The translations under genes and the position numbers were made by a program. Positions 5,484 through 51,382 of a stretch of DNA of 64,000 nucleotides are shown here, piece after piece. The stretch's first letter is position 1. Every line of letters starts with the position of its first letter. The notes beneath the pieces are model-generated. The model was not told where the DNA came from and did no database searches. It saw only the letters and a list, made by a program, of their open reading frames with translations. This DNA is from Pelagomonas calceolata (lineage: Eukaryota). Location of the stretch: assembly GCA_918797485.1 (NCBI GenBank), contig CAKKNE010000006.1, positions 3,038,001 through 3,102,000 on the forward strand. The letters run 5' to 3'.

Positions 5484-6237
5484 ATGTCAGCCGTCCCCTT
5501 CGCCGGCGTCGGCAAGCCCTTCCAGAAGCACGCCGAGCGCCACGCCGCCGGCACGCCGCGGGAATCGATAGACGAGTTTGACGGGCGGGCCGTGCTCGCG
5601 CTGCCGCGGGAGGGCGCGTCCAAGGACGGCGAGCGGCCCTGGTTCTCGGGCCAGGTCGTCGCGACGGACGGGTCGCGGCGCCAGTTCCAGGTCCTCGCGA
5701 CCCCCCTACCGCCCTGCGAGGACGGCTGCAAGTGTTCGGGGGGCGACGGCCTGCATAGATATAGGTTGGCCCTCAAGGACGCGACGCGGCGGTTGTGTGC
5801 GGTGGTCATCTGCGACGCGTCGGGCGGCGACTTCCTGCGGTTGAGACCTGTGTGGACATCAAATTTTACGGCGCGTTCGCCTGCCCGATGGCGTGGCGAT
5901 GTCGGTTCCTCACCGCTCGACGGACACCCGACGCACTGGTTGATTTCCACACAGGTTGACGCCGGCGGACCCTTCGTTAGCATCGTTCGAGCCGGAGACG
6001 CTCCTCGAAGACGACCGCGCGCGGGCCGCGCTAGATACGTTCTTCCCGCGCCTCGCGGCGGAGGCCGACGCCGGTTTTGATTGTTGCGTCGTCGTCGGTC
6101 GGTTTCAATGCAAGCAGTTGCTCCTCTTCGGGGCGACGCGGAAGCGCGGGGCCGCCGATGCTATGCCGGGCGCCACGCCGCCGCCCAAGAAGCCGGCGGT
6201 CGCACCGGCTCCGACGACGCCGCCGCCGGGGCCCTAG
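5484..6237 (+). CDS. two-exon hypothetical protein (5484-5839, 5955-6237); possible OB fold resembling the POT1/RPA C-terminus
   Basis: removing intron 5840-5954 joins GGDFLR|LTPADPSL in frame; YRLALKDAT...FDCCVVV resembles the POT1 C-terminal OB fold. Confidence 0.55.
5848..5954 (+). mobile_element. introner element (intron 5840-5954, GT-AG)
   Basis: TIR ctgtgtggacatcaa/ttgatttccacacag; TSD gttgagac/gttgacgc. Confidence 0.85.
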
Positions 6238-17808: not shown

Positions 17809-19642
17809 CTAATCCCACCCGTCGTCGCCCGTCGCCACGACCTCCTCCGCGACGGGCTCGACGTAGTCCGTGTACTTCGCGCGGGCGTCCAAGAGCTGCG
17901 GATGGATGTCCTCCGCCAGCTCGCGCCGCGCCGCCGCCGCGGCTTCCACGCGGAGCTCGCGCAGGCGCAACGCCATGCGCGCGGGTATCACGAGCTCGCC
18001 GCCCCGGATGTGGTAGGGCGACTCGTCCCTATAAGCCCAGAGCGCCTCCATGCATGCATCAGCATCGGCGCCGGCGTCGCGCGGCCGCGCCTCGTACTGG
18101 CCCGGCGGCGGCCGCTTCGAGCGCTTTTCGAGCGACGAGCGCGGGTCGCCCTTGGACAGCTTCGGGACCCACTTCTGGGAAAACCTGTGCGTATCTCATT
18201 GAGAAGTGCGAGGACGATCGAAACATTCGACGCCGGACGGGGACTCCTCGAGAAACGATAGCGCCGCATCCTTCGCCGCCGAAGCTATTTCGTCCCCCTC
18301 CCCCTTCACATACTTGGCTTCACGTTCCTCGCGGCGCTTGCGACGCCGCTCGACGACGCGCTCGTCCACGTCATCATCGTCTTGATCGGCCTTGGCCTCT
18401 CTCCTTAAATAACCGCTCTCAAAGGCATTTTGTGGAGTCAACGAACGCACCTCCTCCGTGAGCGCCTCCAATGCTCGCAGCGTCGCGAGGCGGTCGCAGG
18501 CTCGTTGACTGTGTGAACGGTACCGTCGCGTCGATGGCGCGTTGCTCGACGCCATCGACGCGGACCCGAAGTATTGAAGGCACAATTGACACCGAGTCAG
18601 CACTCAAACGCGTAGAGGGGCATCGGCTCGTCCTCGGTGTACCAGCTCGTGCGCGTTTCACCGCCCTCCGCGAGCTCGGCATCTCGCAGCATGGCCGCCT
18701 GTGCACAAATCAACCAGTGAGTCGGGTGCGACAGATGCGCCGCGAGAATTTGATTTATGCACTGATGGTCGCGTCGGGCAGGCCCCCGATCTGGCGCTCG
18801 AGCGCGACGCGCTCCTGGTCCGCCTTCTCGAGCTCAGAGAACTGAAATGCCCAGGTGTCGACCTGTGTGGAAATCAAAATTTTACGGCGCGTTCGCGCTG
18901 AATCTTCGCGTCGAGCTTCACGCCATCGACGCGACGCCTGCTCGATGGCGTGGCGATGCCGGTTCCTCACCGGTCGACAGAGCCAGCGCGGCCAAGTGCA
19001 CCCGACGCAATGGTTGATTTCCACACAGGTGTCGACCATGACGTCGGCCGTCGTCACCAGCCTTTTTAGAACTTGCTTTGGGTCAATCACCTCGTCGTAG
19101 ACTTCCATGGCTTGCTTAGCCAGGAACGGATTGGCGAGTTCTCGCGCCGACCTGTGTGGAAATCAACCAGTGCGTCGGGTGCACCCGACAATTCTTCACT
19201 AAGTCATTTCTCGGCGATGGCGCGGCCGTGCCGGCTCCGTCGGGCGGCGAGGAACCGGCATCCTCACGCTATGGAGCAGGCGCCGCGACGCGCCATAAAA
19301 TTTTGATTTCCACACAGGCGCCGACAGGCGCCGCCGCGGGGCCACCGCGATCTCTACGACCTCTTTCTCGGCCGTGCCCATGTCTACTAAGTATTCCTGG
19401 AACGGTTTGTTGAGCTGGCCGAACGCGGCGCTGTAGGTGCCGGGGAAACGTCTTGGTGAATTGCTATCGAGGTGGGCGTGGTCCTGGAAGGCCTTGAGCC
19501 AATTACCGAGCGGTTCGTTCTTCAAATCAGCCATATAATTCAACTGCTGCTGAACGGCGCGCTGGACGAGGTAGTCGCCGAGGTTGATCTTGGGCGGCGC
19601 CAATGCCCAGGCGGCGGTGGCGAGGCAGAGGTAGCGCCACAT
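17809..19642 (-). CDS. six-exon hypothetical protein with plastid-type presequence (exons 19642-19326, 19151-19037, 18862-18773, 18698-18604, 18508-18245, 18184-17809)
   Basis: five introns removed by hand give one continuous frame from MWRYLCLATAAWALAPP to ...ATGDDGWD*. Confidence 0.75.
18509..18603 (-). mobile_element. old, degenerate introner-like intron (GT-AG)
   Basis: 3' end ttcacacag; internal cgcgtcgatggcg motifs; splicing gives YAFD|QRACDRL. Confidence 0.55.
18699..18764 (-). mobile_element. short introner (intron 18772-18699, GC-AG)
   Basis: TIR ctgtgcacaaatcaa/ttgatttatgcactg; TSD atggccgc/atggtcgc. Confidence 0.8.
18863..19028 (-). mobile_element. intact introner (intron 19036-18863, GT-AG)
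   Basis: perfect 15-bp TIR ctgtgtggaaatcaa; perfect 8-bp TSD gtgtcgac at 18855-18862 and 19029-19036. Confidence 0.93.
19152..19317 (-). mobile_element. intact introner (intron 19325-19152, GT-AG)
   Basis: perfect TIR; perfect TSD gcgccgac at 19144-19151 and 19318-19325. Confidence 0.93.
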
Positions 19643-19985: not shown

Positions 19986-21794
19986 ATGACCGCACTCGCA
20001 GTGATGGCATCTCTCCTCGCGACCACAAAGAGCCTAGACCTAGCAGGCCACCTGCGCGCACTAGGCGCCCCGCGGGCCGCACAACGCCTGGACGGCGGGC
20101 CACCTCCAGTAGCTCCAACGCCGTTCACAGTCGATGCGAGCAAAGTCCACCTGGTAGCCGACGCGGCAGCCGCAGCAGCCTTCAGTGCCGACGTCGGCAG
20201 CGCGTCGGCAATCGCACTGGACTGCGAGTGGCGCCCCGACGGCCCCGGCGAGGACCACGCGGTAGCACTCGCTCAGGTCGCAACGAAGAGCAATGTTTGG
20301 CTCGTTGATTTCGTAGACATCAGCGGGCCCGCGAGAATAACCGCGCTGGACGCGCTGACGAACGCCCTCCAGTCCCAACATACATCAATCGTCGCGTTCT
20401 CCATCGCCGCCGACGTGTCGAAGCTGTCGAGTGTGCTGCCTAACTTCGCCCAAGCGACGCGCGTCGTCGACCTCGCGACGTCGAGCGACGGCCTCGCGGC
20501 GGCCGTGCGCCGCTGGCTGCCTATGTATCACCTCGACAAGGCGCAGCAGCGTAGCGACTGGGCCCTGCGCCCGCTCTCGCCGGCCCAGGTCGCCTACGCG
20601 GCCGCCGACGCGGCCGTGCTGCTTCCTCTTTTGGATGCGATGCGGGCGGGCGGAGCCGCACCTTCTGAGCGCGACGTGGCGCCGGCGCCGCGGACCTCGA
20701 CTGATAGCGACGCGGCCGAGCCGGATGATGACGGCGCGCTGGCCGTCGCGCGGGCGGTAGTCGCTCGCACGCCGGGCTGTAGCATTGTCGCCGCGGATGC
20801 CATGCCGGCGGACGCCGTTGAGGTCAATGCCCTGGCGGTCGAGGCCGGTGATAGGAAGCTCCTCGTCGTCGCCGAGGCGGGAAAGCGGCTCGATCTGAAA
20901 TGGCTCGCGCTCGCGCTGGACACGCCGCGGCGGCGCGTGCGGCTCTCCTCGCGCTGCGTCGAGGCCTTTGGCGTGGCTCCCCACCGCGTGCCTCCCATCG
21001 CCCTGCGAGACGACGTGTCCGTCGTCGCGACGCCGGCGCTCCTGGCCTCGACGCGCCCGCTCTGGGGCTCGGCGGGCGGCGACGGCTACCGAGTCGTCTT
21101 CGAGGACGGCGCGGCGCTGGCGCGCGTCGCGTCACCTCTTCCTGACCCGGCGCTCTACTACGCGACGCTAGATGAGGCGCTCGACGCGTACGGCGGCGGA
21201 AACGCGCCGACGACGTCATCCGGAGCGGTCCGGCTGGCCGCCGGCGCGACGGGCCGCCGCGTCATGCTTGACGCTTCATTGGTGGCCTGTGCGCGGCGGC
21301 TGCGCATGATCGGCGTGGATTGCGCGGTCGCCGGTGAGGTCCTGCGAAAGGAAGCGACGCCGCGGCGGCCGCTCGACGGTTGCGACCGGGTTCACGTGAT
21401 CGCGTCTAAGGTCGACACTGATTTACGACGCGCGGCGCTCGAGGGTCGGCTCGTCGTCGTGGCGTCGTCGCGGAAGCGCGCGCCCGGAGCTTGCTACGTG
21501 GTTCGCGGCACGACGCCGGATCAGCAGTTCGATGAATTGCTCGACGTCCTCGGCGAGCGCGGCGCGGTGGCGACGTGGGGCTCGCGGTGCGGCATCTGCA
21601 ACGGCTGCGACTGGCACACCCTGGCGCCGGAGGCAGTCGTCGGCGAGGCGCCGCAGGGCGTCCTGGCGGACGCTACGGAGTTCTACCGGTGCGGCGTCTG
21701 CGGGCAGTTGTTCTGGCCGGGCGCCAAGTACGAGGACACGATGGCGACGCTGCGCGGGCTCGCGCTGACGAAGGCGGTGTCTTCTGTTTCCTAG
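19986..21794 (+). CDS. MUT-7/EXD3-like protein: DEDD 3'-5' exonuclease + YbaK-like domain + Mut7-C (PIN/Zn ribbon)
   Basis: ALDCEW, SDWALRPLSPAQVAYAAADA; VNALAV...LLVVAE...FGVAPHRVPPI; ARRLRMIGVD; RCGICNG...CGVCGQLFWPG. Confidence 0.8.
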   Translation: MTALAVMASLLATTKSLDLAGHLRALGAPRAAQRLDGGPPPVAPTPFTVDASKVHLVADAAAAAAFSADVGSASAIALDCEWRPDGPGEDHAVALAQVATKSNVWLVDFVDISGPARITALDALTNALQSQHTSIVAFSIAADVSKLSSVLPNFAQATRVVDLATSSDGLAAAVRRWLPMYHLDKAQQRSDWALRPLSPAQVAYAAADAAVLLPLLDAMRAGGAAPSERDVAPAPRTSTDSDAAEPDDDGALAVARAVVARTPGCSIVAADAMPADAVEVNALAVEAGDRKLLVVAEAGKRLDLKWLALALDTPRRRVRLSSRCVEAFGVAPHRVPPIALRDDVSVVATPALLASTRPLWGSAGGDGYRVVFEDGAALARVASPLPDPALYYATLDEALDAYGGGNAPTTSSGAVRLAAGATGRRVMLDASLVACARRLRMIGVDCAVAGEVLRKEATPRRPLDGCDRVHVIASKVDTDLRRAALEGRLVVVASSRKRAPGACYVVRGTTPDQQFDELLDVLGERGAVATWGSRCGICNGCDWHTLAPEAVVGEAPQGVLADATEFYRCGVCGQLFWPGAKYEDTMATLRGLALTKAVSSVS

Positions 21795-21912: not shown

Positions 21913-23262
21913 TCAGCGCTCCATGGCCGCCGCCGCCGCGGGCGCGCCGTACTTTTCCTTGGCCGCGCGGAGCGTGTTTCTTAAGTCGTCCGGCGAGCGA
22001 GCAAGCGCGAGAAGCTCGATGCTCCCCGTCGGTATGAAATGACTGTTCTCTTCACTTTCTATAAGGGTCTCGTGTTTGCTGAAGATGGTCGCTCGATACA
22101 GGCCCTCCGCGTCGGGCTGGATGCAGACGTACATGCAGCAACCCCCGGGGATACAACAGCCGCAATGCAGCCCGACGACCAGGGCGTCGAAAGCGGAATC
22201 CCCCGCGGAACCCCCCATATCACAAAAGTCGCCCTTTCGTGTCGGGACGCACCTGCCGCCGCCGTAGGTGTGGATCCGAACGTTCTTGTCGACGTCGAAG
22301 CCGTCCCAGGCGATCGCGTTGACGCCGTTCTGATGTTTCTGTTCATTGACCCTCCAGTACGGCTGGACGCCAGCCTCTCCTTCTAAGTCCCCACATCCTA
22401 TGCAGCAACAGTTGCACCCACCCCCGGGCGAGTCGGGCCCGAAGTTCCGACGGCCGACGATGCCTTTGTCGGTCAGGATCAGCGCAGCATCACCCCACGG
22501 GGGAAATTCCATGTCCCTGTGTTTGCTGCGGAGCATATTATAGAGAAAAGCGCTCAGGAAAATGGGGGAAAACGCCAGCATGTGAATCGTCCAAGGGAAC
22601 ACGCAGCACATGTACTCCGGGCATTGAGCGCAGTTCTCCATCTCGCCTCTGCGCAGGGTGCCGGGTACCCCATGGCAAACATGCGTGCGCGCTTTTGTGG
22701 CGTTCGCGGCGTCGAAGAGCGTGCGATCGACGCCGAACGCGTCGATCACCGGGTCCGCCGCGCCGACCGGTGTAGTGAAGCCGTCGGGGCCCACGTACAC
22801 GGCGCCGAGCCCCGAGAAGAGGAGCGCGTGGCTTCGCGTCATGTCGCTCAGGGGACCCGGCACCGCAGACTGCTCCTTCCTTGCCCGCGCCACCAGGTTG
22901 GCCCCGGCTCCAGAGTCCTCACCTGCCAATATACCGTCCACCGAAACTAAATGGAAGCCTCGCGGGTCCGTCACTTTCCCTGGGCTCAGGGCCACATGAT
23001 CGTGTTCCTTAACTAAGTGGAACCCTCGCGGTATTTGCGCGACGAGCGGCGAGCCCGCGGCCACCTCGAACGTCTTTTCGCGGCCTTGGTTGACCGTGAG
23101 GCCGCAGTCGCCGGGCGGGAGCTCGAGGACCGCCTCGTTGAAGCCCAGCAGGGACCCGACGGTCGGTCCGCTAGCTTCGGAAGAGAACTCCGTAACGATG
23201 GTGCCCTCGACTACCGGCTCCCCAGTGGATTCGGGCAGCATCTCGCCCGTGAGCGGCTCCAT
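21913..23262 (-). CDS. Cys-rich membrane hypothetical protein
   Basis: long ORF with TM segment WTIHMLAFSPIFLSAFLY and CC clusters. Confidence 0.6.
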   Translation of the reverse strand: MEPLTGEMLPESTGEPVVEGTIVTEFSSEASGPTVGSLLGFNEAVLELPPGDCGLTVNQGREKTFEVAAGSPLVAQIPRGFHLVKEHDHVALSPGKVTDPRGFHLVSVDGILAGEDSGAGANLVARARKEQSAVPGPLSDMTRSHALLFSGLGAVYVGPDGFTTPVGAADPVIDAFGVDRTLFDAANATKARTHVCHGVPGTLRRGEMENCAQCPEYMCCVFPWTIHMLAFSPIFLSAFLYNMLRSKHRDMEFPPWGDAALILTDKGIVGRRNFGPDSPGGGCNCCCIGCGDLEGEAGVQPYWRVNEQKHQNGVNAIAWDGFDVDKNVRIHTYGGGRCVPTRKGDFCDMGGSAGDSAFDALVVGLHCGCCIPGGCCMYVCIQPDAEGLYRATIFSKHETLIESEENSHFIPTGSIELLALARSPDDLRNTLRAAKEKYGAPAAAAAMER

Positions 23263-23559: not shown

Positions 23560-24639
23560 ATGGCCGCCAGTCTCACCACAAGACCAAGGCCACCCGTTCG
23601 ATGGCTGGCGGCGCTGCTCGCCCTCGCACATGTTAAAGCCGACTGCGCCTCCTGTTTTGTAGAGCCGGTCCACGCCGGCGCCACCAGCGCAGCATTGATC
23701 GTAGGCGACGCCATCACGGACAGTTTTTATCCCGAGGTCGACGCTCTGTTGGATGACACGCCGCCGGACGCGGCCCAGTGCACGGCCGCCGAGGGCGGCG
23801 CGGGGGTGGTCACGACGCGCCGCGGGTCGCTGACCGCCACTACATTATTACGACCGTGCGCTTCTGATCTACTTAATTGCGTCGACAGCGCGCTGAGCAC
23901 GTTCCCGAACGCGTCGTCCGTAGTCAAGGTGGTGCACTTCAACTGGGGCTGGGAGCAGTTCGAGGACTATTCCATAAATCTGGCGAACTACGAGGCCGAG
24001 ATCGGGGACCTCTACGCGAAGCTGCAAACCGCGTTCCCTTCAGCCATATTCGTCTGGGCCACCACAACACCCATCAAGGGCGACGCTAGTATTGAGGCGA
24101 TGAACGAGAGAGCGTTGGCCGCGCTGCCGAGCGACGTCAAAGTCCACGACCTCCACGCGTCCATCCTAGACTACTGCGAAAAGGAAGGATCGGAAACGTG
24201 TTCGCTCCACGAGCCCGCGGGACCCTTGACGCCGTCGGGACGGCGCTACGCCGCCGTCGCCGTCTCATCATACATCGCCAAACTCATTCCCGGCGTCGCG
24301 ACCGAGGGCCTCCGCCACAGCACGCAGGAGGGCGACGCGACGCGATTTCGACCCTGGGAGACCGCTATGATGATTCAAGGGCTCTGCGTCATGTGTCTTG
24401 GCATCCTGGTCTCGTGTGCCTTCGCTTATTTATGGTACTTCGAGCGCAGCGACGCGGTGACCAATAGCTGGCGGCGCGACGACGACGAGGCCATGCCGCC
24501 GCCCGTCGAGATCGCCTCGGTCCAGATGTCGGCGCTGGGCACGATGGCCTCGACGCCGCCGGCGACGCCGCCGCGCCAACCGCTGCAACGGACGCCCTCG
24601 CCGGCCGCGCCCATGCGCACGCCCGACTCCATGCTCTGA
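23560..24639 (+). CDS. SGNH-hydrolase-like type I membrane protein, catalytic residues apparently altered
   Basis: LIVGDAIT (cf. GDS), VVHFNWG, VWATTTP, VHDLH; C-terminal TM. Confidence 0.65.
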   Translation: MAASLTTRPRPPVRWLAALLALAHVKADCASCFVEPVHAGATSAALIVGDAITDSFYPEVDALLDDTPPDAAQCTAAEGGAGVVTTRRGSLTATTLLRPCASDLLNCVDSALSTFPNASSVVKVVHFNWGWEQFEDYSINLANYEAEIGDLYAKLQTAFPSAIFVWATTTPIKGDASIEAMNERALAALPSDVKVHDLHASILDYCEKEGSETCSLHEPAGPLTPSGRRYAAVAVSSYIAKLIPGVATEGLRHSTQEGDATRFRPWETAMMIQGLCVMCLGILVSCAFAYLWYFERSDAVTNSWRRDDDEAMPPPVEIASVQMSALGTMASTPPATPPRQPLQRTPSPAAPMRTPDSML

Positions 24640-24682: not shown

Positions 24683-25021
24683 CTACGCCTTGATGTCGAG
24701 CTTGTCCATCTTCGTGAAGCGCTTCTGCGCCGAGTACTCGAGCGCGAGCGTGCGCTTCATCTTCCCAGCCTTCTCGAGCGACGGGCCGAGCTTGGCGATG
24801 GCGCCGCCGCCGACGATGGCCGCGATGCCCGCGAGCGGCAATAAGCCGAGCGCGACGCCCTCGACCTCCTCGACGAAGCTCACGTCGGCGAGCGCGGCGG
24901 CCGGCGCGAGCGCGGCGGCGGCGGCGGCGACGGCGGGCGCGACCTTGATTTGTGGGCGCGTTTTCGGCGCGGAGAGCGCCGCGGCGCCCGCGACGAGCGC
25001 GAGGAGGACCCTTCGCAGCAT
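24683..25021 (-). CDS. small plastid/thylakoid single-TM protein
   Basis: signal peptide, second hydrophobic segment ending ALA, then one TM and a basic tail. Confidence 0.6.
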   Translation of the reverse strand: MLRRVLLALVAGAAALSAPKTRPQIKVAPAVAAAAAALAPAAALADVSFVEEVEGVALGLLPLAGIAAIVGGGAIAKLGPSLEKAGKMKRTLALEYSAQKRFTKMDKLDIKA

Positions 25022-25416
25022 CTTTTTTTTTACCTGTGTGGCACAAGAGGTGCTATTCGTGCGCGTGTCGACCTCGACGCGGCGTCGAGTTGTCTCGGTG
25101 CGATTCCTGAGGCCGCTGCGCAGTGCCGGGCCGGCGGTAGCGCGTCTCGGCGCTCCCACAAACGATCGCGAGGCACCATAGCGCTTGGCCGCAGCCTTTT
25201 AGCCCGGCTTATGCAGCAGATGCATGAAGCTCGGTTATTAGGGCTCGCCAGCAGCTGAAATTCTCGCTGTGACCTCTCAGCGCATACATGTGACTTAAGA
25301 AGTGCCGTCCGTGTCAAGAAAGTTTGCAAATGCTCCGTTTTATACCGCTTTTAGCCCTGTTGACGCAAGAGGCCGCTTCCTAGTGGTCGTACACCGCTAG
25401 CTACGATGTTGATTGA

Positions 25417-25518
25417 GAGCTAGTGGCAGCCAGGCTCGCTCCTAGGGGCGGTCTGGAGCGACTTCACAGGGTAGTGTCAGTCACCCTAGGGCCTGGACCT
25501 AGGTATGCTGGACCGGTG
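25417..25518 (+). repeat. diverged direct repeat, left copy (pairs with 32309-32397)
   Basis: ggcagccaggctcgc...ggagcga.ttcacagg.tagt...ctagggcc...aggtatg..ggaccggtg shared. Confidence 0.75.
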
Positions 25519-26807
25519 GGCTAGGCCCAGGGCTGCCGGACGGGAAGAGTCTGTCCCCTAAAAGTACGACGCCTGGAAGGGCCCCTCCGACGATCCGACG
25601 AGGTCCCCAAAAAAATATATCGCGCGCCGCGCGCCGCCCACTAATTCTAGGACCGTGACAATATTCATCACGGGTGGGGGACCCCGCGACGTAACTAGCC
25701 TGAGCCTGAGGTCGAGGACAACTCGCCTACGGACCCGCCCTCTTGCACCCAGAGGGAGGGAGTGAGGAGTCTATTTACAAAGCCACTGCCGCGCCCACGC
25801 TTCGCGTCGTCGCCCGCGCCCCGCGCCGGGCCGACGGGTTGTCGCGCAGGTTGTGCGGCTTCAGCGCGCCGCCCGTGCCGGCCGACGCGTCGGCGTTGGG
25901 CGTGTTCAAAGCGCTGAGCGCCGGCCAGTCAAACGGCGTCGTCCGCACCTTCTCGAACACGAAGTCGGGGTAGCCACCGACGCAAGCCCCGCCGTGAGGT
26001 CGGCTCCGGCGTCGCTTCGACGAGCACATGCACCGCTTTTCGTGCGTTGGCACGGCGTAGGCGTAGGCGTGGACTCGGCCCCGGCGTCAGCGCGGTCTGG
26101 CATCGGTCAAAGTGTCGGTCCAGGCCTAGGGATTCCGTGTAGGCGTAGGCGCAGGCGAGGGCGACATGGGCAAAGGCGAGGGCGTCGATTTCAGGCGCAG
26201 GTCCCGGCCAGACCAAGGGTTCGTGCAGAAATCACAATGTGTCAGGTGGGGCAGTTTTCAGCCCTTCTCACGCGACGCGCGCAGCTACACGACTCCATGG
26301 GCAACCTACGGGTCCACGGCGTCCTCGGCTACGGCAGCAAGCATGCCTTGTGGCTCTGGTCCGCGCCGTCGCCGACGTTCGAGCAAATGATGCATGGGCC
26401 CTCGTCGGCGCCCGAGGCTGTCCGGCGCGTCCGCCACGGTGGCTGGCGACGTAGGGAGGCAGTCGGAGGACTCGCGCCGGCCTCCTCTGGCTCCTGGCTT
26501 GTGCTGTAGCAAAACGGCGGCATTCGAGAGCATGAAGGATGAACCCAATCGACGCCCGAGGATGCGTAGCTCGTCCGCCGCGGTGGAGCGGACGTCTGCC
26601 GGTTGGCGCGGTGATCGATGGGCTCCGACGCCGGCGCCGGCCGCCGCAGATTGCGGCAAATCGCTGTAATCTCGCTTGACAGCTCTCCCAAAAACCCGGC
26701 AAAGATATGAAAACGCTCCGCTCAGATTCCCGCGCTGCGGCTGCAGTATAAGCGCAGCCAAGGCAGCTGTTTGAAGACAAACCAAGGTGTGAAACCCGCG
26801 TCGAAAT

Positions 26808-26828
26808 CTAGAGTCTTACCGCCGCTAG
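26808..26828 (-). promoter_or_regulatory. CTAG-bounded motif copy upstream of the giant ORF
   Basis: ctagagtcttaccgccgctag. Confidence 0.6.
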
Positions 26829-27290
26829 CTTTACGCCCGGTAGAAAGTTCGGGTCTGATCAAACGCCCTTGCGGCCAACACACGCGCTGCGACTCGTAAA
26901 GTGGCCTCGGATCTGGTGCTGACTGCCTATTAGTAGGGCGCAAGCCTTATGGCGTGCCGGCGCGTGGCCTCGCGGCCCCGCGCTGCGCCCAAATGTCCAT
27001 CACCACCATCACTCTGGCCGAGCGTTTTGTGCGCGCTGGCTCTTGCGGCAACCGCTTCGCAGCGATGCCGCAGTCCCGCCACGCACGCTTCGCCGGTGCG
27101 CGCCTCGCAGCTCCTCGGCCGGCCGTCGCCGGAGAATACGAGCGCCGCCGCGAGCGCCGACACTTTTTTTTGTTTCAAGGCATCATCATCAACGACATCG
27201 CGCCGACCTCGTGCTCGCCGACGCCGAGGCTCTTCGTGCTCACGCCGTTCTTCTACTGCTGGAGACGCGCGCGCCGACGCCTGCGGCGCC

Positions 27291-30200
27291 ATGACGCTCA
27301 AGGATATCAAAAAGCAGCTCCTCACTTTGTGCACGGTCCAGGCCGTCAATCTTCACGGAGGTCGCTTCGCGAAGTGCGTGGAGAAGTGTGTCAAGAAATT
27401 GTTTAGCCTCAATAAACGCTTAGACGTCGTCAAGTTCGACAGGAGCATTTGGAGCTACTACTTCCACGGAAGAACGGACTGGGAGCTCCGTGGTGTCGCC
27501 CGAGCATTGCGTTCGCTCGGCGTCTACACCGTGACGCTCATAGACGGCTTTGGTCAAACCATAGTGAAAGTGCGCCACACGGGCAAGTTCGTGAGGTTCC
27601 GCGTGAACCCGCTCTGTATCTGCTGCGCGTGGCTCGGCCGCAACCACGCCGCGGTCCTCGCCCTGGGACTCTACGTGCCGGACGATTTGTACGATTTGGC
27701 GGCGCGCGTCCGCGAGGACGCCGCTTTAGTCGCTTCGCAGTCCAAGCCGCAGGAGGCCGACTACGAGGCGTACAAGAACGCCGGTTTCTGCGTTGTAAGG
27801 GAGGGCGACGTCGGAGCTCTCCTCGACGCCGTGCAGCAGAAACTAGGTTCGGGCACCGTTCTGGCTGGCGTAGGCGACGCCGACGCCGCTGGTAGCCTGA
27901 TGGAGTTGTTACTACCCGACCTGGACGTGGCGGACCTCACGAACGACGGCGACGCCGGGCTCGTCAACTCGTACATCACGCACGAGCGAAATCTGGGGCG
28001 GTTCGCCGTGTACGACACGCGCTTCGAGGACGACCAGCGGAGGAAGATGCTCTGGACGGCGCTCAACTTGTGCGGCGAGGGCGACTGCATGGTCCGCGAC
28101 GTCCTCAGCAGGACGACTCAACGCGACTCGGTTCGCTTCACGGCGATCTCGGGCCGCATCGACTCGGGCCGCATCACGACCCTCGACCAGCTGTTCGCCG
28201 AGGTCGGCGCGAGCCGCGACCAGCGCCTGCACGTCATCTACGCGCTGACGACCTACGTCAACGGCGTGTGGTGCGTCGACGGCACCCCCAAGCCGTTGCG
28301 GATCCTCGCCACGGCCGAGCAGTACGCGCGGTCGTCGCTGACGCGGAACCGCGTGGCGGTGCGGCGCGCCGTCCTCGCTAGCAGCGCCGATTCCAAGCTC
28401 GTCGAGGCGGTGTTCGAAGCCGCCTTCAGCACGGCGCGCGGCTACTACGGCGTCAAGGACGTCGCCGCGGCGCTCATGGAAATCTCGCAAGGTGCGACGA
28501 AGGTGCATGTGCTCGATCGCCGCGAGGCGGTGCTCAAGGACGTCGATGAGGCGTTCGATGATGCGACGGCCGTTTTAGCTACGAGCGCTTTGGCGGAGAA
28601 CTTCGGCGAGGCGGAGCTCCAGGGGTTGCTGGCCGAGGTCTACAAAGACAAGGCCTGGCTGGCGCTGACAAATGATAGTGTGTTCTTCCCGCCGTCCCGC
28701 GAGGAGGTCGACTGCCGGGGGGCGGAGGTAGCCTTCGCCGCCCTGAAGAAAAAAGCTGATGACGTGAAATCGCGCCTGGAGCTCTTCTACCGCCTGATAT
28801 CACGTGCAGAGCAGGCTGTGTCGCACGCCGGCGAGGCTTCGCGGCGGGCCATCGACGCTCTAGACAGATTGGCTGCCGGCTCCTCCGTCCTGGACGCCGC
28901 CATCGCGGCTGCTACGAGCCACATCGACTCCATTGATGCGGCGGTGGTGGGTCGCGCGGCGTCGGCCTTTAATTTAGCTGTGGAAGCGTGGAAGCAGAAC
29001 AACGTCGAGGGCGTCACGGCGCAGATCGATGCCTTGAAAGCGGCGGTGGATCCCGCGCTTGTCATGGGATTGCAGGGGTGCGCCGTCCGGTTGCACTCTG
29101 CGGTGGTAGATGCGACGTGGGCGTCGCAGCAACGTGTGCCGGAGGTTACGCGCTCCACCCTCGAAGCGCTCTCTGCGCATGGTTCATTATCGGCTTCGTT
29201 AAGGGACCACCTCAAGACATTCTTCGACCAGTGCGCCGCCGAGACGGACCTGGACCGCTTCCTGGGCGTGTTGAATGAAGAGCTCGCCGGCGGTCTGCGG
29301 TGGGGTACGCTACACGCCATCGAGCGAGCGGCCGGCGTGGCGTCCACAGCATTAGGTCGCGCGTCCAGTGTACGGCGCATCGTCGACGGCGTGATCGACC
29401 GGGTTAGGTATTTCGAGAAGTCGTGTTTTGGCGGTCCCACTGCTTATGTTGCACTGCAGACCCTCCTAGGCTCTGGCGACGCCGCCACGGAAGGGTCGCT
29501 GGAGCAACTCATCGTCGAGGACCTAGACACGCTCTCACATGCTTTGGTGCCCATTGTACAGCAGGCCTTGCTCGCCGACGAGCCGTCGGTAGACGAAGTG
29601 CTAGAGACTTTTGATAGAACGGTTGCGGATGTTTGGAGAAAGCTAGGCGCCGCTGACACGCCGTCTGCACGCCGGCGTGCTCTAGTGAGCAGAGTGGCAG
29701 ACATCGCGAGGCGGCCCTATGTAGCCGGAGAAACCGTGCGGCGCCACACCGACGCGTTACGCGCGGCTTTGAGTGGCGATGCTACCGCCCAAGCTACCCT
29801 CGCGTCGGTTGATGCACGATGCGGTACTGCTACTGATGCGGCGTCTGTCGAGCTCCGGGGGCGCCTCGTCGCCGCGCTGGGCGCGCTGGCCGGCGGCGCT
29901 GACGCCGTCGAGTCGCGGCTCGCCGCCGCGGAGGCGGCGGCAGACCGGGCGTGTCGGGACGTGTGGGCGCTCGTCGCTCGGCTTGCTCGCGTGGCGGACA
30001 TCGCGGCGCTGCCCGGCGCCGCTCGGGAAGCCGCGCTGCGCTACGCCGACGCGTTACGCGCGACTTTGAGTGGCGATGCGGGCGCTGAAGCCCTCCTCGT
30101 GTCGGTTGTTGGACGATGCGGTGCTGCTACTGATGCGGCGTCCGACGAGCTCCGAGGGGCCCTCGTCGCCGCGCTGGACGCGTTGGCTCGCGGCGCGGAT

Positions 30201-31979
30201 GACGTCGAGTCGCGGCTCGCCGCCGCGGAGGCGGCCGCGGCCGCGGCGTGTCGGGACGTGGGGGCGCTCGGCTCTCAGCTCGAGCGCGTGGCGGGCATTG
30301 CGAGGCGGCCCTACGTAGCCCGAGGAGCAGTGCGGCGCGAGGCCGACGCATTACGCGTGGCTTTGAGGGGCGATGCTGGCGCCTTAGCCGTCCTCGCGTC
30401 AGTTGTTGGGCGATGCGATTCTGCTACTGATGCGGCGTCCGACGCGCTCCAAGGGGCCCTCGTCGCCGCGCTGGGCGCGCTGGCCCGCGGCGCGGAGGAC
30501 GTCGAGTTGCGGCTCGCCGCCGCGGAGGCGGCCGCGGCCGCGGCGTGTCGGGACGTGGGGGCGCTCGGCGCTCAGCTCAAGCGCGCGGCGGACATCGCGA
30601 CGCTGCCCTACGTCGCTCAGAAAGCCGTGCGGCGCGACGCTGACGCGTTGCGCGTGGCTTTGAGGGATGATGCTGGCGCCCTAGCTGTCCTCCGGTCGGT
30701 CGTTGCACAATGCGGTACTGCTACTCATGCGGCGTCCGTCGCGCTCCGGGGGCCCCTTGGCGCCGTGCTGGGCGCGCTGGCCGGCGGCGCGGAGAACGTC
30801 GAGTCGCGGCTCGCCGCCGCGGATGAGGCGTGTCGGGGCGCGCTAGCGCCAGTCGACCTGCTCGCTCGCGTGGCGTCGGCCTTAGACCGGGCCCGCGCGG
30901 CTTCCGGAGCGCGCACCGCTTTACCCGCGGAATTTTCCGACCTTAGAAATGACCTCATCGCGGCTTCTGATGCTGCATCGACCACGGTTCCGACGCACGC
31001 CCTGGCTGCTCTGAGAGCGATCGCCGCCAACGACGCGGCCGTGGCCGAGACGGAACTACTCGCAGCGGAGAGAGCGGTGGACTCGAAGCTACGCGCGGCG
31101 GCGGCGTTTTGGACGGCTGAGGCGAAGCGGCGCGCTGCGGCGGGGCCGGAGGTGTCCGCTCTCCTAGAGCCAGCCGCTTTCCTAGAGCAAGTGACGCGGG
31201 AGTACGGCGGCTGCGACATTAAGGTCTGCCAGGTCGTCCGCTCGGCCGTCGAGGGGCTGGCCCAGAAGGACGCCGCCGTCGTGACGGGTCGGGGTTGGGT
31301 CGAACATTTGGACGACGCCGGCTTCCGAGACCTGCCGAGGTCCGTCCTCTGCGTGTTCCGCGAGCTCGAGTCCGTCTGCCACGAGAAGGCGCGCCAGTGG
31401 GTGCCGGCCCTCGTAAGGAAGGCCACGGCGGCGCTCGCCTACCTCGACGCGCGCGAGGGCGGCGCGGACCCGCGCGCGGCCGAGGCCGCCGCCCAGGCCG
31501 TCGCGGAGGAGCTGCCGCGGTCGAACCGCGAGATAGCACGGAACTCGCGCGTCGAGACGCCCGTCGAGGAGAATCTTCGCTTGCTCAAGCGCGCGCTCGC
31601 CGAGGGCCTACGAAAGAAGGAGCCGAAGGCCGATGGCACCGCCAAGGCGCAAGGATGGGGGGAAAACCTGTCAAGGCCCGAGCGTCGCGAAGCGCTCCGG
31701 GCGTTGGGGAAGTCATCGCCTGAGATCCTCAAGGAGCTCGCGTGCCTGCAAATGTGCAAACGGGCGTTCGGAACTGAGTTGAAACCGGGGTTTGGCCCGA
31801 GGCTCCGCGAGGCGGCCTTCTCGGTGCTCGAGGAATTGGACGCCGCGGCCGCAAACGCGCTCGTGCGCCCGCCGGAGCTGATACAGTCCGAGTCCGCGCC
31901 GGCGGTCGCCTCGAAGTCGGTTCGTAAATCGAAGCGGCAGAGGGTCCTGCGCGACCCCAACGTCGACGCGCAGGGCTGA
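27291..31979 (+). CDS. giant helical orphan protein (~1560 aa; frame open from 26949) with four 99-aa tandem repeats
   Basis: uninterrupted ~5-kb ORF; repeat starts at 29691, 29988, 30285, 30582. Confidence 0.75.
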   Translation: MTLKDIKKQLLTLCTVQAVNLHGGRFAKCVEKCVKKLFSLNKRLDVVKFDRSIWSYYFHGRTDWELRGVARALRSLGVYTVTLIDGFGQTIVKVRHTGKFVRFRVNPLCICCAWLGRNHAAVLALGLYVPDDLYDLAARVREDAALVASQSKPQEADYEAYKNAGFCVVREGDVGALLDAVQQKLGSGTVLAGVGDADAAGSLMELLLPDLDVADLTNDGDAGLVNSYITHERNLGRFAVYDTRFEDDQRRKMLWTALNLCGEGDCMVRDVLSRTTQRDSVRFTAISGRIDSGRITTLDQLFAEVGASRDQRLHVIYALTTYVNGVWCVDGTPKPLRILATAEQYARSSLTRNRVAVRRAVLASSADSKLVEAVFEAAFSTARGYYGVKDVAAALMEISQGATKVHVLDRREAVLKDVDEAFDDATAVLATSALAENFGEAELQGLLAEVYKDKAWLALTNDSVFFPPSREEVDCRGAEVAFAALKKKADDVKSRLELFYRLISRAEQAVSHAGEASRRAIDALDRLAAGSSVLDAAIAAATSHIDSIDAAVVGRAASAFNLAVEAWKQNNVEGVTAQIDALKAAVDPALVMGLQGCAVRLHSAVVDATWASQQRVPEVTRSTLEALSAHGSLSASLRDHLKTFFDQCAAETDLDRFLGVLNEELAGGLRWGTLHAIERAAGVASTALGRASSVRRIVDGVIDRVRYFEKSCFGGPTAYVALQTLLGSGDAATEGSLEQLIVEDLDTLSHALVPIVQQALLADEPSVDEVLETFDRTVADVWRKLGAADTPSARRRALVSRVADIARRPYVAGETVRRHTDALRAALSGDATAQATLASVDARCGTATDAASVELRGRLVAALGALAGGADAVESRLAAAEAAADRACRDVWALVARLARVADIAALPGAAREAALRYADALRATLSGDAGAEALLVSVVGRCGAATDAASDELRGALVAALDALARGADDVESRLAAAEAAAAAACRDVGALGSQLERVAGIARRPYVARGAVRREADALRVALRGDAGALAVLASVVGRCDSATDAASDALQGALVAALGALARGAEDVELRLAAAEAAAAAACRDVGALGAQLKRAADIATLPYVAQKAVRRDADALRVALRDDAGALAVLRSVVAQCGTATHAASVALRGPLGAVLGALAGGAENVESRLAAADEACRGALAPVDLLARVASALDRARAASGARTALPAEFSDLRNDLIAASDAASTTVPTHALAALRAIAANDAAVAETELLAAERAVDSKLRAAAAFWTAEAKRRAAAGPEVSALLEPAAFLEQVTREYGGCDIKVCQVVRSAVEGLAQKDAAVVTGRGWVEHLDDAGFRDLPRSVLCVFRELESVCHEKARQWVPALVRKATAALAYLDAREGGADPRAAEAAAQAVAEELPRSNREIARNSRVETPVEENLRLLKRALAEGLRKKEPKADGTAKAQGWGENLSRPERREALRALGKSSPEILKELACLQMCKRAFGTELKPGFGPRLREAAFSVLEELDAAAANALVRPPELIQSESAPAVASKSVRKSKRQRVLRDPNVDAQG
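29691..30840 (+). repeat. 297-bp tandem repeat, ~4 units
   Basis: RVADIA...DALR.AL.GDA...CG.ATDAAS..LRG.LVAALGALA.GA..VESRLAAAE repeated. Confidence 0.9.
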
Positions 31980-32308
31980 GTGGCAGCTGCTGCACGCCGG
32001 GGTAAGAGTGTCGTGTGAAGTTGAAAATTCAAGATATTGTTGGTTTATTGTTACGGTGCTAGAACTAGTGGGCGGAGTCCCTTGGGGGGGCACGCTAGCT
32101 AGCGGATAGCAGCAGCAGCAGCACCCGTGCCCTCGCGCGGGCGCGGCCGGTGTCGGCGCCGACACCGCGGCCAACGCCTCCCATGACGCCGCAGCCGACG
32201 CCGTGCACACAGGCCGCGGCGCTGCGCGCGAAGCTGGACCGCGTAGCCCAAGCCAACACCGCGGAGGTGCGCGCGCGCGACGCCGAGATCGCGAGCCCGC
32301 ACGCTTAC

Positions 32309-32397
32309 GAGCTTTGGCAGCCAGGCTCGCGCCAGGAGTGGTCCGGAGCGAGTTCACAGGATAGTAACACGCTAGGGCCAGGTATGAAGGACCGGTG
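32309..32397 (+). repeat. diverged direct repeat, right copy
   Basis: matches 25417-25518. Confidence 0.75.
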
Positions 32398-32502
32398 TTG
32401 ATCGACGGCGGACGCGCGGCGCCCGAGCCCACGAGTCCTACCACCGGAACGCCGTCGACGCGAGAAGGAGACTAGTATCACGTAGAGTTAAACACAATAG
32501 AC

Positions 32503-33174
32503 CTACTTCGCCGTCTTCGCCTTCTTCGGCGGAGAGACGAAGTCGCTGATGCCGAGGAACTTCTTGCAGACCTCTTTATTGGAGCGGTAGCGCTTGCCGT
32601 CCGACGAGTGGAAGTAGTAGTCGATGCCGCCTTCCGTGTTGCCCTCCATGCGCTGCTTGCAGGTGACGGTAATTTCCCGCTCGACCTTGTCGGCGTCGCC
32701 ACCATTGGCCTTGACGAACTCGATCAGCTTGAGCTTTCGTTCCGCACATTTGTCCGCGTTGTCGCCCGTCGACAAGCGAGGCTTCTTCTTCGTTTCGCGG
32801 TGGAGTCTTTGCTCGAACAACCACCGGATGTATTTCCGGGCCTCGTCTCGGTCGGCATCCGTCACGCCGAGCGGATCCGCGTCGTCGGGCACGTAGGGCT
32901 CCACCGGTGTACTATACAGACTCTCGTAGGGCGGTCGCAATTCCACGGCATTCCTCGTCGCCATCAACGCGTCCTTCACAGACTGATCTTCGATGTGGAT
33001 GAAACCCTTGATGATGTCGTTGGCTAAGTCACCCCTCGAACCGCCGAGATCCAGGACCATCTGCAATGACGTGGCGCACTTGTACCTATCGTACCTAGCC
33101 GCGGACGTGCCCCTCTTGGGGTTTTCTTGTTGTAAAGTGCAGCGCGCGCGCATGTGCTCCGGGCTGAACTTCAT
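32503..33174 (-). CDS. protein with an N-terminal NPK...RY..YK module and a C-terminal methyl-CpG-binding (MBD)-like domain
   Basis: KQRMEGNTEGGIDYYFHSSDGKRYRSNKEV fits the MBD pattern R..G...G..D.YY.SP.GK.FRS..E. Confidence 0.7.
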   Translation of the reverse strand: MKFSPEHMRARCTLQQENPKRGTSAARYDRYKCATSLQMVLDLGGSRGDLANDIIKGFIHIEDQSVKDALMATRNAVELRPPYESLYSTPVEPYVPDDADPLGVTDADRDEARKYIRWLFEQRLHRETKKKPRLSTGDNADKCAERKLKLIEFVKANGGDADKVEREITVTCKQRMEGNTEGGIDYYFHSSDGKRYRSNKEVCKKFLGISDFVSPPKKAKTAK

Positions 33175-33651: not shown

Positions 33652-35231
33652 ATGATGTCATATTGCAAATTGCTGCTGCTTTGGGCAGCAGCGGCACGCC
33701 CCGTCGCGGCATGTAGGTTCATCGCCTACTGCGGCAACCGCACGGTCGACGCGCGAAAACTACTCTTGGACGGCGAGAACAATTTACTCGCCCTAGCGAC
33801 GAGCCGACCGCTCCTCCCAGCTCTCTCGCTGTCGAGGCACTACGACGAGGCACAAGTACCACTAAGGAACGTGGAGAAGAACCTGGATGGCTACGGCGTG
33901 TCCTGGTACGAAGAAGGCGAGTCCTTTCCTCGCAGAGTCAGAAGTGCCAATCCGATCATCAAGGATAATGTGTCGGATGCGACCTTCCAGAATTTGTTGG
34001 ATGGGCGGGCCGCTGTGTGGAAATCGACCAGTGAGTTAGGTTATTTGCGGAGACCTTCGTGAACCTCCACGCCATCGAACCGGCGCGGTCGCGTCGACAA
34101 TGTCGCGTCGATGGCTGAAAACCACGCTATCGAGCAGACAGCTACGGAGACAACATCGCGTCGATGGCGTAGGGCGCCCGAAATTTGATTTCCACACAGG
34201 CGCGCCGTGCCCATGCTGTTCCGGGCTTCATTAGATGTTTGTGTGGAAGAGCCGCAGCCACCTTCACAAGTAGCTCTTGAATCTAGAGCCGTCTTCGCGC
34301 ACGTAAGGGCCGCATCCCCCAATTCGACGCAGAAGGAGACCAATTCGCACCCGTTCGCATTTCATACGTTAACATGGCTCCACAATGGTCATGTTTGGGG
34401 TTTTGAAAAGTTTCGGGAGCAGCTCATCGCGAAGCTTCCCAGGAAATTGCTGCCGTTGGTCGCCGGCGACACTGATAGTGAACTGGCCGGTGCTGTGTTT
34501 GCGTCGCATCTCGCGGGGTTTCCTTATCGGAAGACGTATGATTTGGTCGCGTTGCGGGCGGCGATGCTCGCGACGGTGGCGAATCTGCGGGAGCGCTCGT
34601 TGCGGGTCCACGAGAGCGAGGGTTCCGATCTGTGTGGAAATCAACCAGTGCGTCGGGCGCACCGGCATCACCACGTCATCGAGCAGGCGTCGCGTCGATG
34701 GCGTGGAGGTCGACGCGAACGATTCAGCACGAACGATTCCACACAGGTTCCGATGTCTGCCCCGACATGCCGCCCTCATCTCTAAACTTCGCTGTTTCAG
34801 ATGGTACATCCCTGGTCGTTATAAGGTTCCGGTCCTCGATGAGCGAGGACCCGCCCACGCTCTACTACCGGATTGTACCAGAGGGCGTGATCGTCGCCTC
34901 GGAGCCGTCGTCTTCAGACGCCGAAACGCTCAGGGAGTGGACGCTGCTCGGCAAAAATAGGATGCTCTCTTATAGTCCCTCGACGGGCGTCCACGTCGAG
35001 TGCGTCTGCCCGCACAGCTGCGACGACGACGTGTCGGCGGCGGCGCACTTTTCCGGGCGGTCCGAGGCTGACGCCGTTGTTGGCAAGGGCCTGGTTTGGT
35101 ACGCCGCCGCCACGGTCCTGGCGTTCCTGCTGGGCCGGCGGTGGCCTGCTCGGTCTTTATCTGAGGAACTGGCGCTTTCTGTCGTCACCGTGTTGTTAGC
35201 CTGGTGGTGCCTGACCACTCCTCCATGGTGA
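33652..35231 (+). CDS. class II glutamine amidotransferase (EgtC/DUG3-like Ntn hydrolase), 3 exons (33652-34004, 34200-34621, 34747-35231)
   Basis: CRFIAYCG, NLDGYGVSWY, FAHVRAAS, NSHPF, WLHNG, GDTDSE, SLNFAVSDG, VASEP; two introners removed in frame. Confidence 0.88.
34013..34199 (+). mobile_element. introner (intron 34005-34199, GC-AG)
   Basis: TIR ctgtgtggaaatcga/ttgatttccacacag; TSD gcgggccg/gcgcgccg. Confidence 0.9.
34630..34746 (+). mobile_element. introner (intron 34622-34746, GT-AG)
   Basis: ctgtgtggaaatcaa...gattccacacag; perfect TSD gttccgat. Confidence 0.9.
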
Positions 35232-51294: not shown

Positions 51295-51382
51295 GTGGTC
51301 TCAGAGACGCCATCGACTCTCTGACGGCCGCGTCGACGCCGTCGCGGCGTCGCGGTCTCGCGAAGACGCCATCGACGCGACC
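51295..51382 (+). repeat. intergenic copy of the 3737-3839 repeat
   Basis: gtggtctcagagacgccatcgactctctgacggccgcgtcgacg...cgacgcgacc. Confidence 0.6.

What the first reader, a model, noticed from the sequence alone, without database searches (positions are those of the whole stretch)
25417..32397. 6.4-kb island bounded by inverted repeats and outer direct repeats, carrying a giant orphan gene
30-bp inverted repeats (25634-25663 vs 32046-32075, 27/30 identity) enclose an ~1560-aa ORF with no recognisable motif. A diverged ~90-100-bp direct repeat (25417-25518, 32309-32397) lies just outside each side. Near both arms a GC-rich hairpin-like run is followed by CTAG (~25671-25698, ~32077-32102), reminiscent of Helitron-type ends. 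Gene density drops here and the region has no introners. I see no transposase, RT or recombinase motif and no TSD. Inference: a non-autonomous cargo element or an unclassified mobile element.
Basis: partly seen in the sequence, partly recalled or inferred. Interest (0 to 1): 0.7.

Follow-up and report, generated by a model that had tools for sequence, protein, structure and literature searches.

The report
Hidden flap-nuclease cassette among mini-repeats
The supposed orphan is a transcribed gene predicted to encode a very divergent FEN1/EXO1-type DNA-cutting enzyme from a scattered, domain-swapping algal gene family, and its 'inverted repeats' are two copies of a short, highly abundant genomic repeat; the cassette likely spreads by recombination-driven copying rather than as a classical transposon.

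Summary
The repeats and the 1562-aa ORF are real, but the reading changes. (1) The ORF is not motif-less. Its first ~340 aa model as a FEN1/XPG/EXO1/GEN1 5'-nuclease (best match EXO1, Z about 12), with seven acidic residues and an arch Lys/Arg. (2) It belongs to a mosaic family of marine, probably pelagophyte, proteins. Several nuclease subtypes (24-95% identical) carry either this helical tail or an SBP-like zinc module. (3) A paralog at an unrelated locus shares the non-coding leader and has two copies of the 'IR' motif upstream, in the opposite orientation. (4) The IR is a ~44-bp repeat at about 1,200 times single-copy depth, so it is not an element-specific terminus. (5) The ~100-bp direct repeat is low-copy and is flanked by an identical 7-mer, a candidate target-site duplication (chance about 1%). 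(6) CTAG is mostly a common promoter-like motif; Helitron ends fail. No empty site, transposase or second close copy was found. Best reading: an old, now apparently fixed insertion of a dispersed nuclease cassette. Self-driven mobility linked to the mini-repeat is possible but unproven.

The parts
25407..25413 (+). Candidate target-site duplication, left copy (TGTTGAT)
   Evidence: 2 of the window's 3 plus-strand copies of this 7-mer sit at the DR edges; chance 17 of 3000 (tight offsets), 42 of 3000 (looser), 599 of 3000 (the wide search in which it was first seen)
25414..25518 (+). Left direct repeat (105 bp), low copy
   Evidence: one X3 contig runs through it, 25023-25656 at depth 505
25634..25663 (-). 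Copy of the high-copy mini-repeat M (left 'IR' arm), diverged and lacking the G-rich tail
   Evidence: bin depth 32,702 vs about 550 baseline in X3
25800..26770 (-). Divergent poly(A) transcript, coding status unresolved; region has further near-identical copies in the genome; ends approximate
   Evidence: X21 depth 103-141 on the minus-RNA side; X3 depth 1,268-1,511 (2-3x); 1-bp variant at 26352 in 46 of 109 reads; no Pfam hit at cut-off for 4 of 4 frames tried
26280..26650 (.). Non-coding block shared with paralogous locus L001 (84% and 74%); contains a 144-bp-spaced internal duplication
   Evidence: score 226, reached by 0 of 300 shuffles
26808..26819 (+). Host-type promoter-like motif (variant of CTAGTGTCTTAC) between the two divergent transcripts
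27100..27290 (+). 5' leader shared with L001 and with other subtypes
   Evidence: score 144, 0 of 300 shuffles; translated leaders of P0048 and P0078 match here
27291..31979 (+). Intact, transcribed 1562-aa ORF; RNA 3' end at 32013
27291..28310 (+). Predicted FEN1/XPG/EXO1/GEN1-type 5'-nuclease domain (aa 1 to about 340); D50, D85, K93, R95, D196, D198, D219, D221, D265
29694..30884 (+). About four 297-bp (99-aa) Ala-rich repeats; dN/dS 0.85-0.97 among the first three
30891..31976 (+). Helical C-terminal module shared with P0039 and P0075, ending in a basic NLS-like tail (NLS label recalled); fold unassigned
32046..32089 (+). Full ~44-bp copy of mini-repeat M (right 'IR' arm), 33 bp past the RNA 3' end
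   Evidence: summed depth up to 612,178 vs about 500 beside it; varied flanks; tandem copies elsewhere with 10- and 16-nt spacers
32090..32305 (+). Spacer with a coding-like fragment; 32179-32232 matches another locus
32306..32397 (+). Right direct repeat (92 bp), single-copy depth; contains a variant of the promoter-like motif at 32364-32375
32396..32402 (+). Candidate target-site duplication, right copy (TGTTGAT; its first two bases overlap the DR end, so the TSD is 5 or 7 bp)
32431..32454 (-). Degenerate third M copy (20 of 24), just outside the unit
   Evidence: (0 of 500 shuffles)

Best explanation
The segment is a transcribed copy of a dispersed gene cassette predicted to encode a FEN1/EXO1-type 5' nuclease with a swappable C-terminal module; it likely arrived here by an old duplicative insertion and likely spreads and reshuffles by ectopic recombination, and the 'IR' arms are two copies of an abundant mini-repeat rather than transposon ends. 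Shown by calls: the repeats, transcription, the high depth of M, the low depth of the DR, the mosaic family, and one paralog at an unrelated locus with a shared leader and adjacent M copies. Predicted: the nuclease fold, the active site and nuclear targeting. Inferred: the protein cuts branched or nicked DNA, in most relatives guided by an SBP-like zinc module, and break repair that uses paralogs as templates copies and recombines the cassette. This would explain the swapped modules, leaders more alike than the nuclease domains, repeat-number changes and a broken copy. The unit 25414-32395/7 with its DR and 5-7-bp duplication would be the scar of one such insertion. Whether the nuclease itself starts these events is untested.
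For: Fold: AF2 pLDDT 77, pTM 0.81. Against 48,161 chains, the top 13 VIA rows are all 5'-nucleases: EXO1 Z 11.7 (rmsd 5.5, 249 aligned), FEN1 10.6, GEN1 9.9, XPG 9.9; EXO1 Z 12.2; Foldseek top hits Rad2, T5 FEN and EXO1. Residues: D50, K93, R95, D196, D198, D219 and D221 are invariant in 13 of 13 rows that cover them (of 14); position 265 is D or E in 12 of 12. Mosaic: P0014 is 85-100% identical per 100 aa over aa 1-600 and then switches to a Cys/His module; P0039 is 22-29% identical over aa 1-500 but 63-85% over aa 601-850 and the C-terminus; P0075 has the window's architecture. The Cys/His module follows four different nuclease subtypes. Dispersal: L001 neighbours are HSF, GT8 and a short-chain dehydrogenase, unlike the window's, yet two leader blocks align. 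M. TSD. A sequenced pelagophyte has a family member (P0069) and separate annotated FEN1, EXO1, GEN1 and XPG genes (PMC9481584 supplement), so the family is likely additional to the repair set.
Against: No joint skipping the unit among the 15 shown (233 not shown). The ORF is at single-copy depth at >=80% likeness (528-629 in 6 bins over 27411-29816), the long X3 and X9 contigs have 0 differences to the ORF, and the 3' end is identical in X8 and X11 and 0-1 differences away in a seawater run: no sign of recent movement. Only one other locus could be read, and it is cut just past the gene. It lacks the DR (4 of 4 tests at shuffle level), and 2 of its 5 upstream blocks (the M-proximal ~580 bp) do not align. 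GC3 (0.75-0.84) and the promoter motif are host-like. D85 is absent from one subtype (6 of 13 rows). The TSD was noticed post hoc. The SBP hits are below Pfam's cut-off. A FEN-type nuclease cuts but does not join DNA (established knowledge).
Confidence: 0.5

Rival explanations
1. An ordinary fast-evolving host gene family: nuclear nucleases with DNA-binding tails, used for example in repair or defence, duplicated passively. M and the DR are unrelated intergenic features and the 7-mer is chance.
For: Single-copy, expressed and identical in several samples; host-like promoter motif and GC3; with about 10^3 M copies, a few per 64 kb are expected; the DR contains a promoter-like motif and may be a duplicated intergenic piece.
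Against: All 3 M copies in the 64-kb window lie within 7 kb around this gene, and both M copies in the 13-kb L001 lie 1.4 kb upstream of its paralog. Leader DNA is 74-84% identical where the nuclease DNA gives no blastn match. The L001 copy has an in-frame stop. TSD chance is about 1%.
Confidence: 0.3
2. A self-mobilising system like bacterial REP-RAYT: the nuclease, aimed by its zinc module, cuts at M and drives the spread of M and, rarely, of its own cassette.
For: A short, extragenic, very abundant repeat with tandem arrays; M beside 2 of 2 loci upstream and 1 of 1 downstream; each subtype low-copy and highly divergent but catalytically conserved, as described for RAYTs (PMC3337134 section 5).
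Against: No HUH or other strand-transfer domain; M folds weakly; its orientation differs between the loci; the window's protein lacks the zinc module; n = 2 loci; no binding or cleavage data.
Confidence: 0.15
3. Passive cargo of a non-autonomous element with short terminal direct repeats (TRIM/LTR-like), moved by machinery encoded elsewhere.
For: Terminal DRs of 92-105 bp, a 5-7-bp duplication, TG at the left end, and a captured-looking fragment at 32090-32305.
Against: The DR is not repeated elsewhere at >=80% likeness; the right end is not CA; no polypurine tract was seen by eye; L001 has no DR.
Confidence: 0.12
4. A TIR transposon or Helitron bounded by the 30-bp IR and CTAG ends.
For: The IR is real and beyond chance.
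Against: M is ~44 bp and extends past the 'IR' on the right, with varied flanks; opposite orientation in L001; no TSD at the IR ends; CTAG is followed by C and is generic; no RepHel or transposase hit.
Confidence: 0.04

Closest known systems
XPG/Rad2-family structure-specific 5' nucleases (EXO1, FEN1, GEN1, XPG; FEN-like group of PIN domains, PMC5499597)
   Same: Predicted PIN core, acidic residues at matching secondary-structure positions, basic residues in the arch region, G-x-D motif after the core; best structural match EXO1.
   Different: 9-14% identity and no Pfam XPG hit; K-x-R spacing in the arch; fused to more than 1,000 aa of helical sequence and, in relatives, an SBP-like module; dispersed, mosaic and partly broken copies.
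Viral FEN/XPG-like nucleases (giant-virus flap endonucleases, poxvirus G5, T5 D15)
   Same: Same fold; Foldseek E about 4e-4 to giant-virus XPG-like proteins.
   Different: Scores are no better than for cellular hits; no sequence link; no relative found in viral contigs with 2 of 2 protein queries. A viral origin is not shown.
Bacterial REP/REPIN-RAYT systems (PMC3337134)
   Same: Low-copy divergent nuclease gene flanked by copies of a short, abundant extragenic repeat.
   Different: RAYT is an HUH/Y1 transposase; REPINs are hairpin doublets. Here the enzyme is FEN-type, the host is a eukaryote and M folds weakly. This is an analogy only.
SBP (SQUAMOSA promoter-binding) zinc domain, PF03110
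   Same: Relatives P0002/P0014, P0009 and P0069 hit profile positions 17-57 (E 0.0016, 0.0045, 0.02).
   Different: All are below the gathering score of 27; P0007 and P0032, with the same module, do not hit; absent from the window's own protein.
TRIM / LTR retroelements (features recalled)
   Same: Short terminal direct repeats and a 5-7-bp flanking duplication.
   Different: No TG...CA ends, no gag/pol, DR not multi-copy.

Membership tests
FEN-like 5' nucleases | PIN-like core fold with FEN elaborations | tested here: met
   (predicted model; EXO1 Z 11.7-12.2, about 250 residues aligned, rmsd 5.5)
FEN-like 5' nucleases | Six acidic core residues after S1, S2, S4 and before H4, H5, plus one from H2TH/H3TH (PMC5499597) | tested here: met
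   D50, D85, D196, D198, D219, D221 and D265 lie at these element ends in the model's secondary structure and are conserved; the mapping is by position, not by a residue-level superposition
FEN-like 5' nucleases | Helical arch with catalytic Lys | tested here: inconclusive
   K93 and R95 are invariant in 13 of 13 rows, but residues 87-103 have pLDDT under 50
FEN-like 5' nucleases | Metal-dependent 5' flap/exo nuclease activity | not testable with these tools
   needs an assay
Pfam XPG_N / XPG_I / XPG_I_2 / XRN_N families | Profile match above cut-off | tested here: not met
   0 of 14 alignment members hit these profiles; P0001 no family
TIR DNA transposons (incl. CACTA, MITE-like cargo) | Inverted repeats are the element's termini | tested here: not met
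   M is a free high-copy repeat with the opposite orientation at L001
TIR DNA transposons (incl. CACTA, MITE-like cargo) | TSD at the IR ends | tested here: not met
   at most 2-bp matches over 22 symmetric offsets
Helitron HLE1 (PMC11417382) | 3' hairpin + CTRR followed by host T; 5' TC | tested here: not met
   CTAG at 25695, 32095 and 32099 is followed by C; weak hairpins; CTAG is generic
Helitron HLE1/HLE2 | RepHel transposase in autonomous copies | tested here: not met
   no Pfam hit; the modelled parts are FEN-like and helical; aa 400-1200 were not modelled
Helitron HLE2 | 11-18-nt TIRs, insertion between T and T | tested here: not met
   30-bp IR with GC-rich outer flanks
LTR retroelements / TRIM (features recalled) | Terminal direct repeats with 4-6-bp TSD | tested here: met
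   candidate only, chance 0.6-1.4% at the DR edges
LTR retroelements / TRIM (features recalled) | TG...CA termini | tested here: not met
   starts TG, ends TG or GG
LTR retroelements / TRIM (features recalled) | Primer-binding site and polypurine tract | tested here: inconclusive
   inspected by eye only; no host tRNA set was available (one search found none in the window)
LTR retroelements / TRIM (features recalled) | Terminal repeat present in further copies | tested here: not met
   depth 506.6 in all 6 bins over 32299-32424 at 80% likeness; more diverged copies would be missed
REP-RAYT | Short high-copy extragenic repeat flanking the nuclease gene | tested here: met
   two loci only
REP-RAYT | HUH/Y1 transposase | tested here: not met
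SBP domain (relatives only) | PF03110 above gathering score | tested here: not met
   15.6-19.1 bits vs 27; no SBP structure hit; works-like lead only

The most novel reading that the evidence does not exclude
A new kind of eukaryotic selfish system: a FEN/EXO1-fold nuclease with an SBP-like DNA-binding module that recognises and amplifies a ~44-bp intergenic repeat to about a thousand copies and occasionally copies its own cassette. This would be a eukaryotic counterpart of REP-RAYT built on a flap nuclease, with no transposase, reverse transcriptase or recombinase.
Probability: 0.15. Interest if true: 0.88.

Novelty: new variant of a known kind. Interest (0 to 1): 0.58.

Why it matters
It converts an orphan into a previously unannotated branch of the FEN/XPG nuclease superfamily. 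This branch is invisible to the profile libraries tried, joins a nuclease to an SBP-like module in most subtypes, and is polymorphic in marine populations of a probably abundant picoalga. It also exposes a very abundant ~44-bp intergenic repeat and a frequent promoter-like motif. If the nuclease and the repeat are functionally linked, this would be a transposition route not based on any known transposase class, and it is directly testable in vitro. Six literature searches returned no paper describing this family or repeat. The library lacks most subscription journals, so this is weak evidence of novelty.

Tried and rejected
No whole genome is held for the window, so genome-wide counts rest on read and contig depth. 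Pfam, PHROGs, NCBIfam, PDB sequence searches and the ESM Atlas gave nothing usable for the ORF. A SWIM-finger reading of the Cys/His near aa 109-119 was dropped because the cysteines are not conserved. The C-terminal model is low-confidence (pLDDT 59) and matches only generic helical bundles; no fold is assigned. Structured-RNA or ribozyme reading of the DR: z-scores -0.3 to -2.2, no Rfam hit above noise, no hammerhead core. A supposed deleted M copy at 25660-25690 was not better than shuffles (388 and 311 of 500). Extension of the DR homology beyond its ends was not significant (64 and 276 of 500). The M pattern found 0 viral loci and 1 prokaryotic locus, L002, a chance match in a 37%-GC bacterial contig. 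The single metagenome scan returned 1 locus of 175 candidates. The X3/X9 joint 25707 to 28358 has only a 21-base side and was not taken as an empty site. The short CTAGTKG motif alone is not enriched (8 vs 7.3). Four look-ups of earlier findings returned nothing. The tree separates the subtypes, but long branches meet, so no order of events is drawn from it.


Full report
Observation. The inverted repeat (25634-25663 / 32046-32075, 27 of 30) and the direct repeat (25414-25518 / 32306-32397, 78 of 92 aligned bases) are present and exceed all 200 dinucleotide shuffles. The ORF runs from 27291 to 31979 (1562 aa) and holds about four 297-bp repeats. The host is inferred to be a pelagophyte alga: GC is about 63%, introner-like repeats occur elsewhere in the window, and a family member is named Pelagomonas calceolata by its source (P0069). 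No genome was held.

The ORF is a predicted nuclease. Profile searches found nothing. Searches of the protein collections found 11 relatives for aa 1-800 and 9 for the N-terminal alignment, all unnamed in those lists. A 14-row alignment conserves D50, K93, R95, D196, D198, D219 and D221 in all 13 rows that cover them, D or E at 265 in 12 of 12, and D85 in 7 of 13. AlphaFold2 on it gave pLDDT 77 and pTM 0.81. Foldseek ranks Rad2, T5 flap endonuclease and EXO1 first (E 6.5e-4 onward). VIA-align against 48,161 chains puts 5'-nucleases in the top 13 rows, with EXO1 at Z 11.7 (rmsd 5.5, 249 aligned), and unrelated folds from Z 7.7 down (Z 12.2). The acidic residues fall at the element ends described for FEN-like nucleases (PMC5499597, passages seen). 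Viral XPG-like proteins match no better than cellular ones. The C-terminal 362 aa model poorly and remain unassigned. Residues 400-1200 were not modelled.

The family is mosaic. P0014 shares the nuclease half (85-100% per 100 aa to aa 600) and then ends in a Cys/His module. P0039 has a distant nuclease half (22-29%) but the window's middle and C-terminus (63-85%). P0075 has the window's overall architecture with fewer repeats. The Cys/His module occurs behind four nuclease subtypes; three of the five such proteins scanned hit Pfam SBP below cut-off. dN/dS among the internal repeats is 0.85-0.97. In the portion of a P. calceolata annotation table that is held (PMC9481584 supplement 4, cut when stored), 7 genes carry the XPG-I profile, among them FEN1, EXO1, GEN1 and XPG, and 0 carry SBP. 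The family is therefore likely additional to the repair set.

A second locus. One metagenome locus was recovered (L001; 1 of 175 candidates). Its neighbours differ from the window's. It shares non-coding DNA with window 26280-26650 and 27100-27290 (0 of 300 shuffles each), weakly 26650-27100 (1 of 300), and not 25690-26280 or the DNA beyond M. Two tandem copies of the IR motif lie 1.4 kb upstream, in the orientation of the window's right arm. It lacks the DR, carries an in-frame stop, and ends just past the gene.

The IR is a free mini-repeat (M). In DNA run X3 the summed contig depth over 32046-32089 reaches 612,178 against about 500 beside it, with varied flanks and tandem copies with 10- and 16-nt spacers. 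X9 agrees at bin level. The tool warns that summed depth is not a copy number. For scale, an introner-like arm at 34718 reaches 563,726, and 956 putative introners are reported for P. calceolata (PMC9481584 supplement 2, passages). M is therefore probably of the order of hundreds to a thousand copies. The window has 3 copies, all within 7 kb of the gene. The DR stays at single-copy depth.

Boundaries. There is no TSD at the IR ends. TGTTGAT stands directly outside both DR copies. Random position pairs give a match of 7 or more in 17 of 3000 (tight offsets), 42 of 3000 (looser) and 599 of 3000 (the wide search in which it was first seen). It is a candidate, not proof. The Helitron reading fails on the criteria in PMC11417382 (passages). 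CTAG richness is largely explained by a motif seen 17 times against 1.9 expected, mostly 90-230 bp upstream of gene starts.

Expression and fixation. Poly(A) reads cover the ORF on the sense strand and end at 32013, and a stronger opposite-strand transcript covers about 25800-26770, a region with further near-identical copies. The ORF is single-copy at 80% likeness and identical in the long X3 and X9 contigs. A seawater run holds 95% and 85% variants of the 5' part and a near-identical 3' part. No empty-site joint is among the 15 shown (233 hidden).

Mechanism. Best supported (0.5): a dispersed nuclease cassette placed here by an old duplicative insertion and reshuffled by ectopic recombination. 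The copying route and any role of the nuclease in starting it are inferred. Rivals: a passive host family (0.3); a REP-RAYT-like self-driven system (0.15; comparison from PMC3337134, abstract and section 5); TRIM-like cargo (0.12); a TIR or Helitron element (0.04). The first and third overlap in part.

Novelty. A new variant of a known kind: a divergent FEN/XPG-fold family with an unusual fusion and a repeat-rich setting. Searches (listings only) showed no description of it. One supplementary file of PMC9481584 could not be read and another was cut; either could bear on whether M was already catalogued. TRIM/LTR features, the NLS label and the statement that FEN nucleases do not join DNA are recalled, not taken from a call.

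Noticed in passing
window 393, 5201, 10679, 13270, 14294, 19883, 23403, 26808, 35311, 40337, 54074, 56413, 61321 and others: Recurrent motif CTAGTGTCTTAC, often followed by GCTAG: 17 matches against 1.9 expected, mostly 90-230 bp upstream of gene starts and often between divergent genes. Likely a core promoter element; 0 matches in L001. The left half of M resembles it (by eye).
   Followed up: partly
window 34013-34200, 34625-34740, 18860-19318, 5845-5962, 38654-38835, 3749-3832, 51299-51382, 12077-12141: Introner-like repeats with inverted arms and very high depth in DNA runs.
   Followed up: partly
window 19986-21794: Mut7/EXD3-like gene: 3'-5' exonuclease + tRNA-editing domain + Mut7-C; this arrangement is mentioned for oomycetes in PMC5499597.
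   Followed up: no
window 25800-26770 (-): Abundant transcript without a clear ORF; near-identical copies elsewhere, one with a 1-bp difference at 26352. Some M-containing RNAs continue into the sequence that follows M in L001, so an L001-like copy is probably expressed in the same organism.
   Followed up: partly
window 32090-32305: Coding-like fragment with a 20-bp perfect palindrome at 32148-32167; 32179-32232 matches another locus.
   Followed up: no
window 39761-39911: Local direct duplication of about 64 bp, 86% identical.
   Followed up: no
L001 9600-9720: Tandem array of about five 20-bp units in the paralog's 5' leader, where the window has one or two diverged units.
   Followed up: no
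window 32503-33174 (-), 21913-23262 (-), 23560-24639 (+), 24683-25021 (-): Flanking ORFs without any Pfam hit; the two direct neighbours of the unit are transcribed.
   Followed up: no
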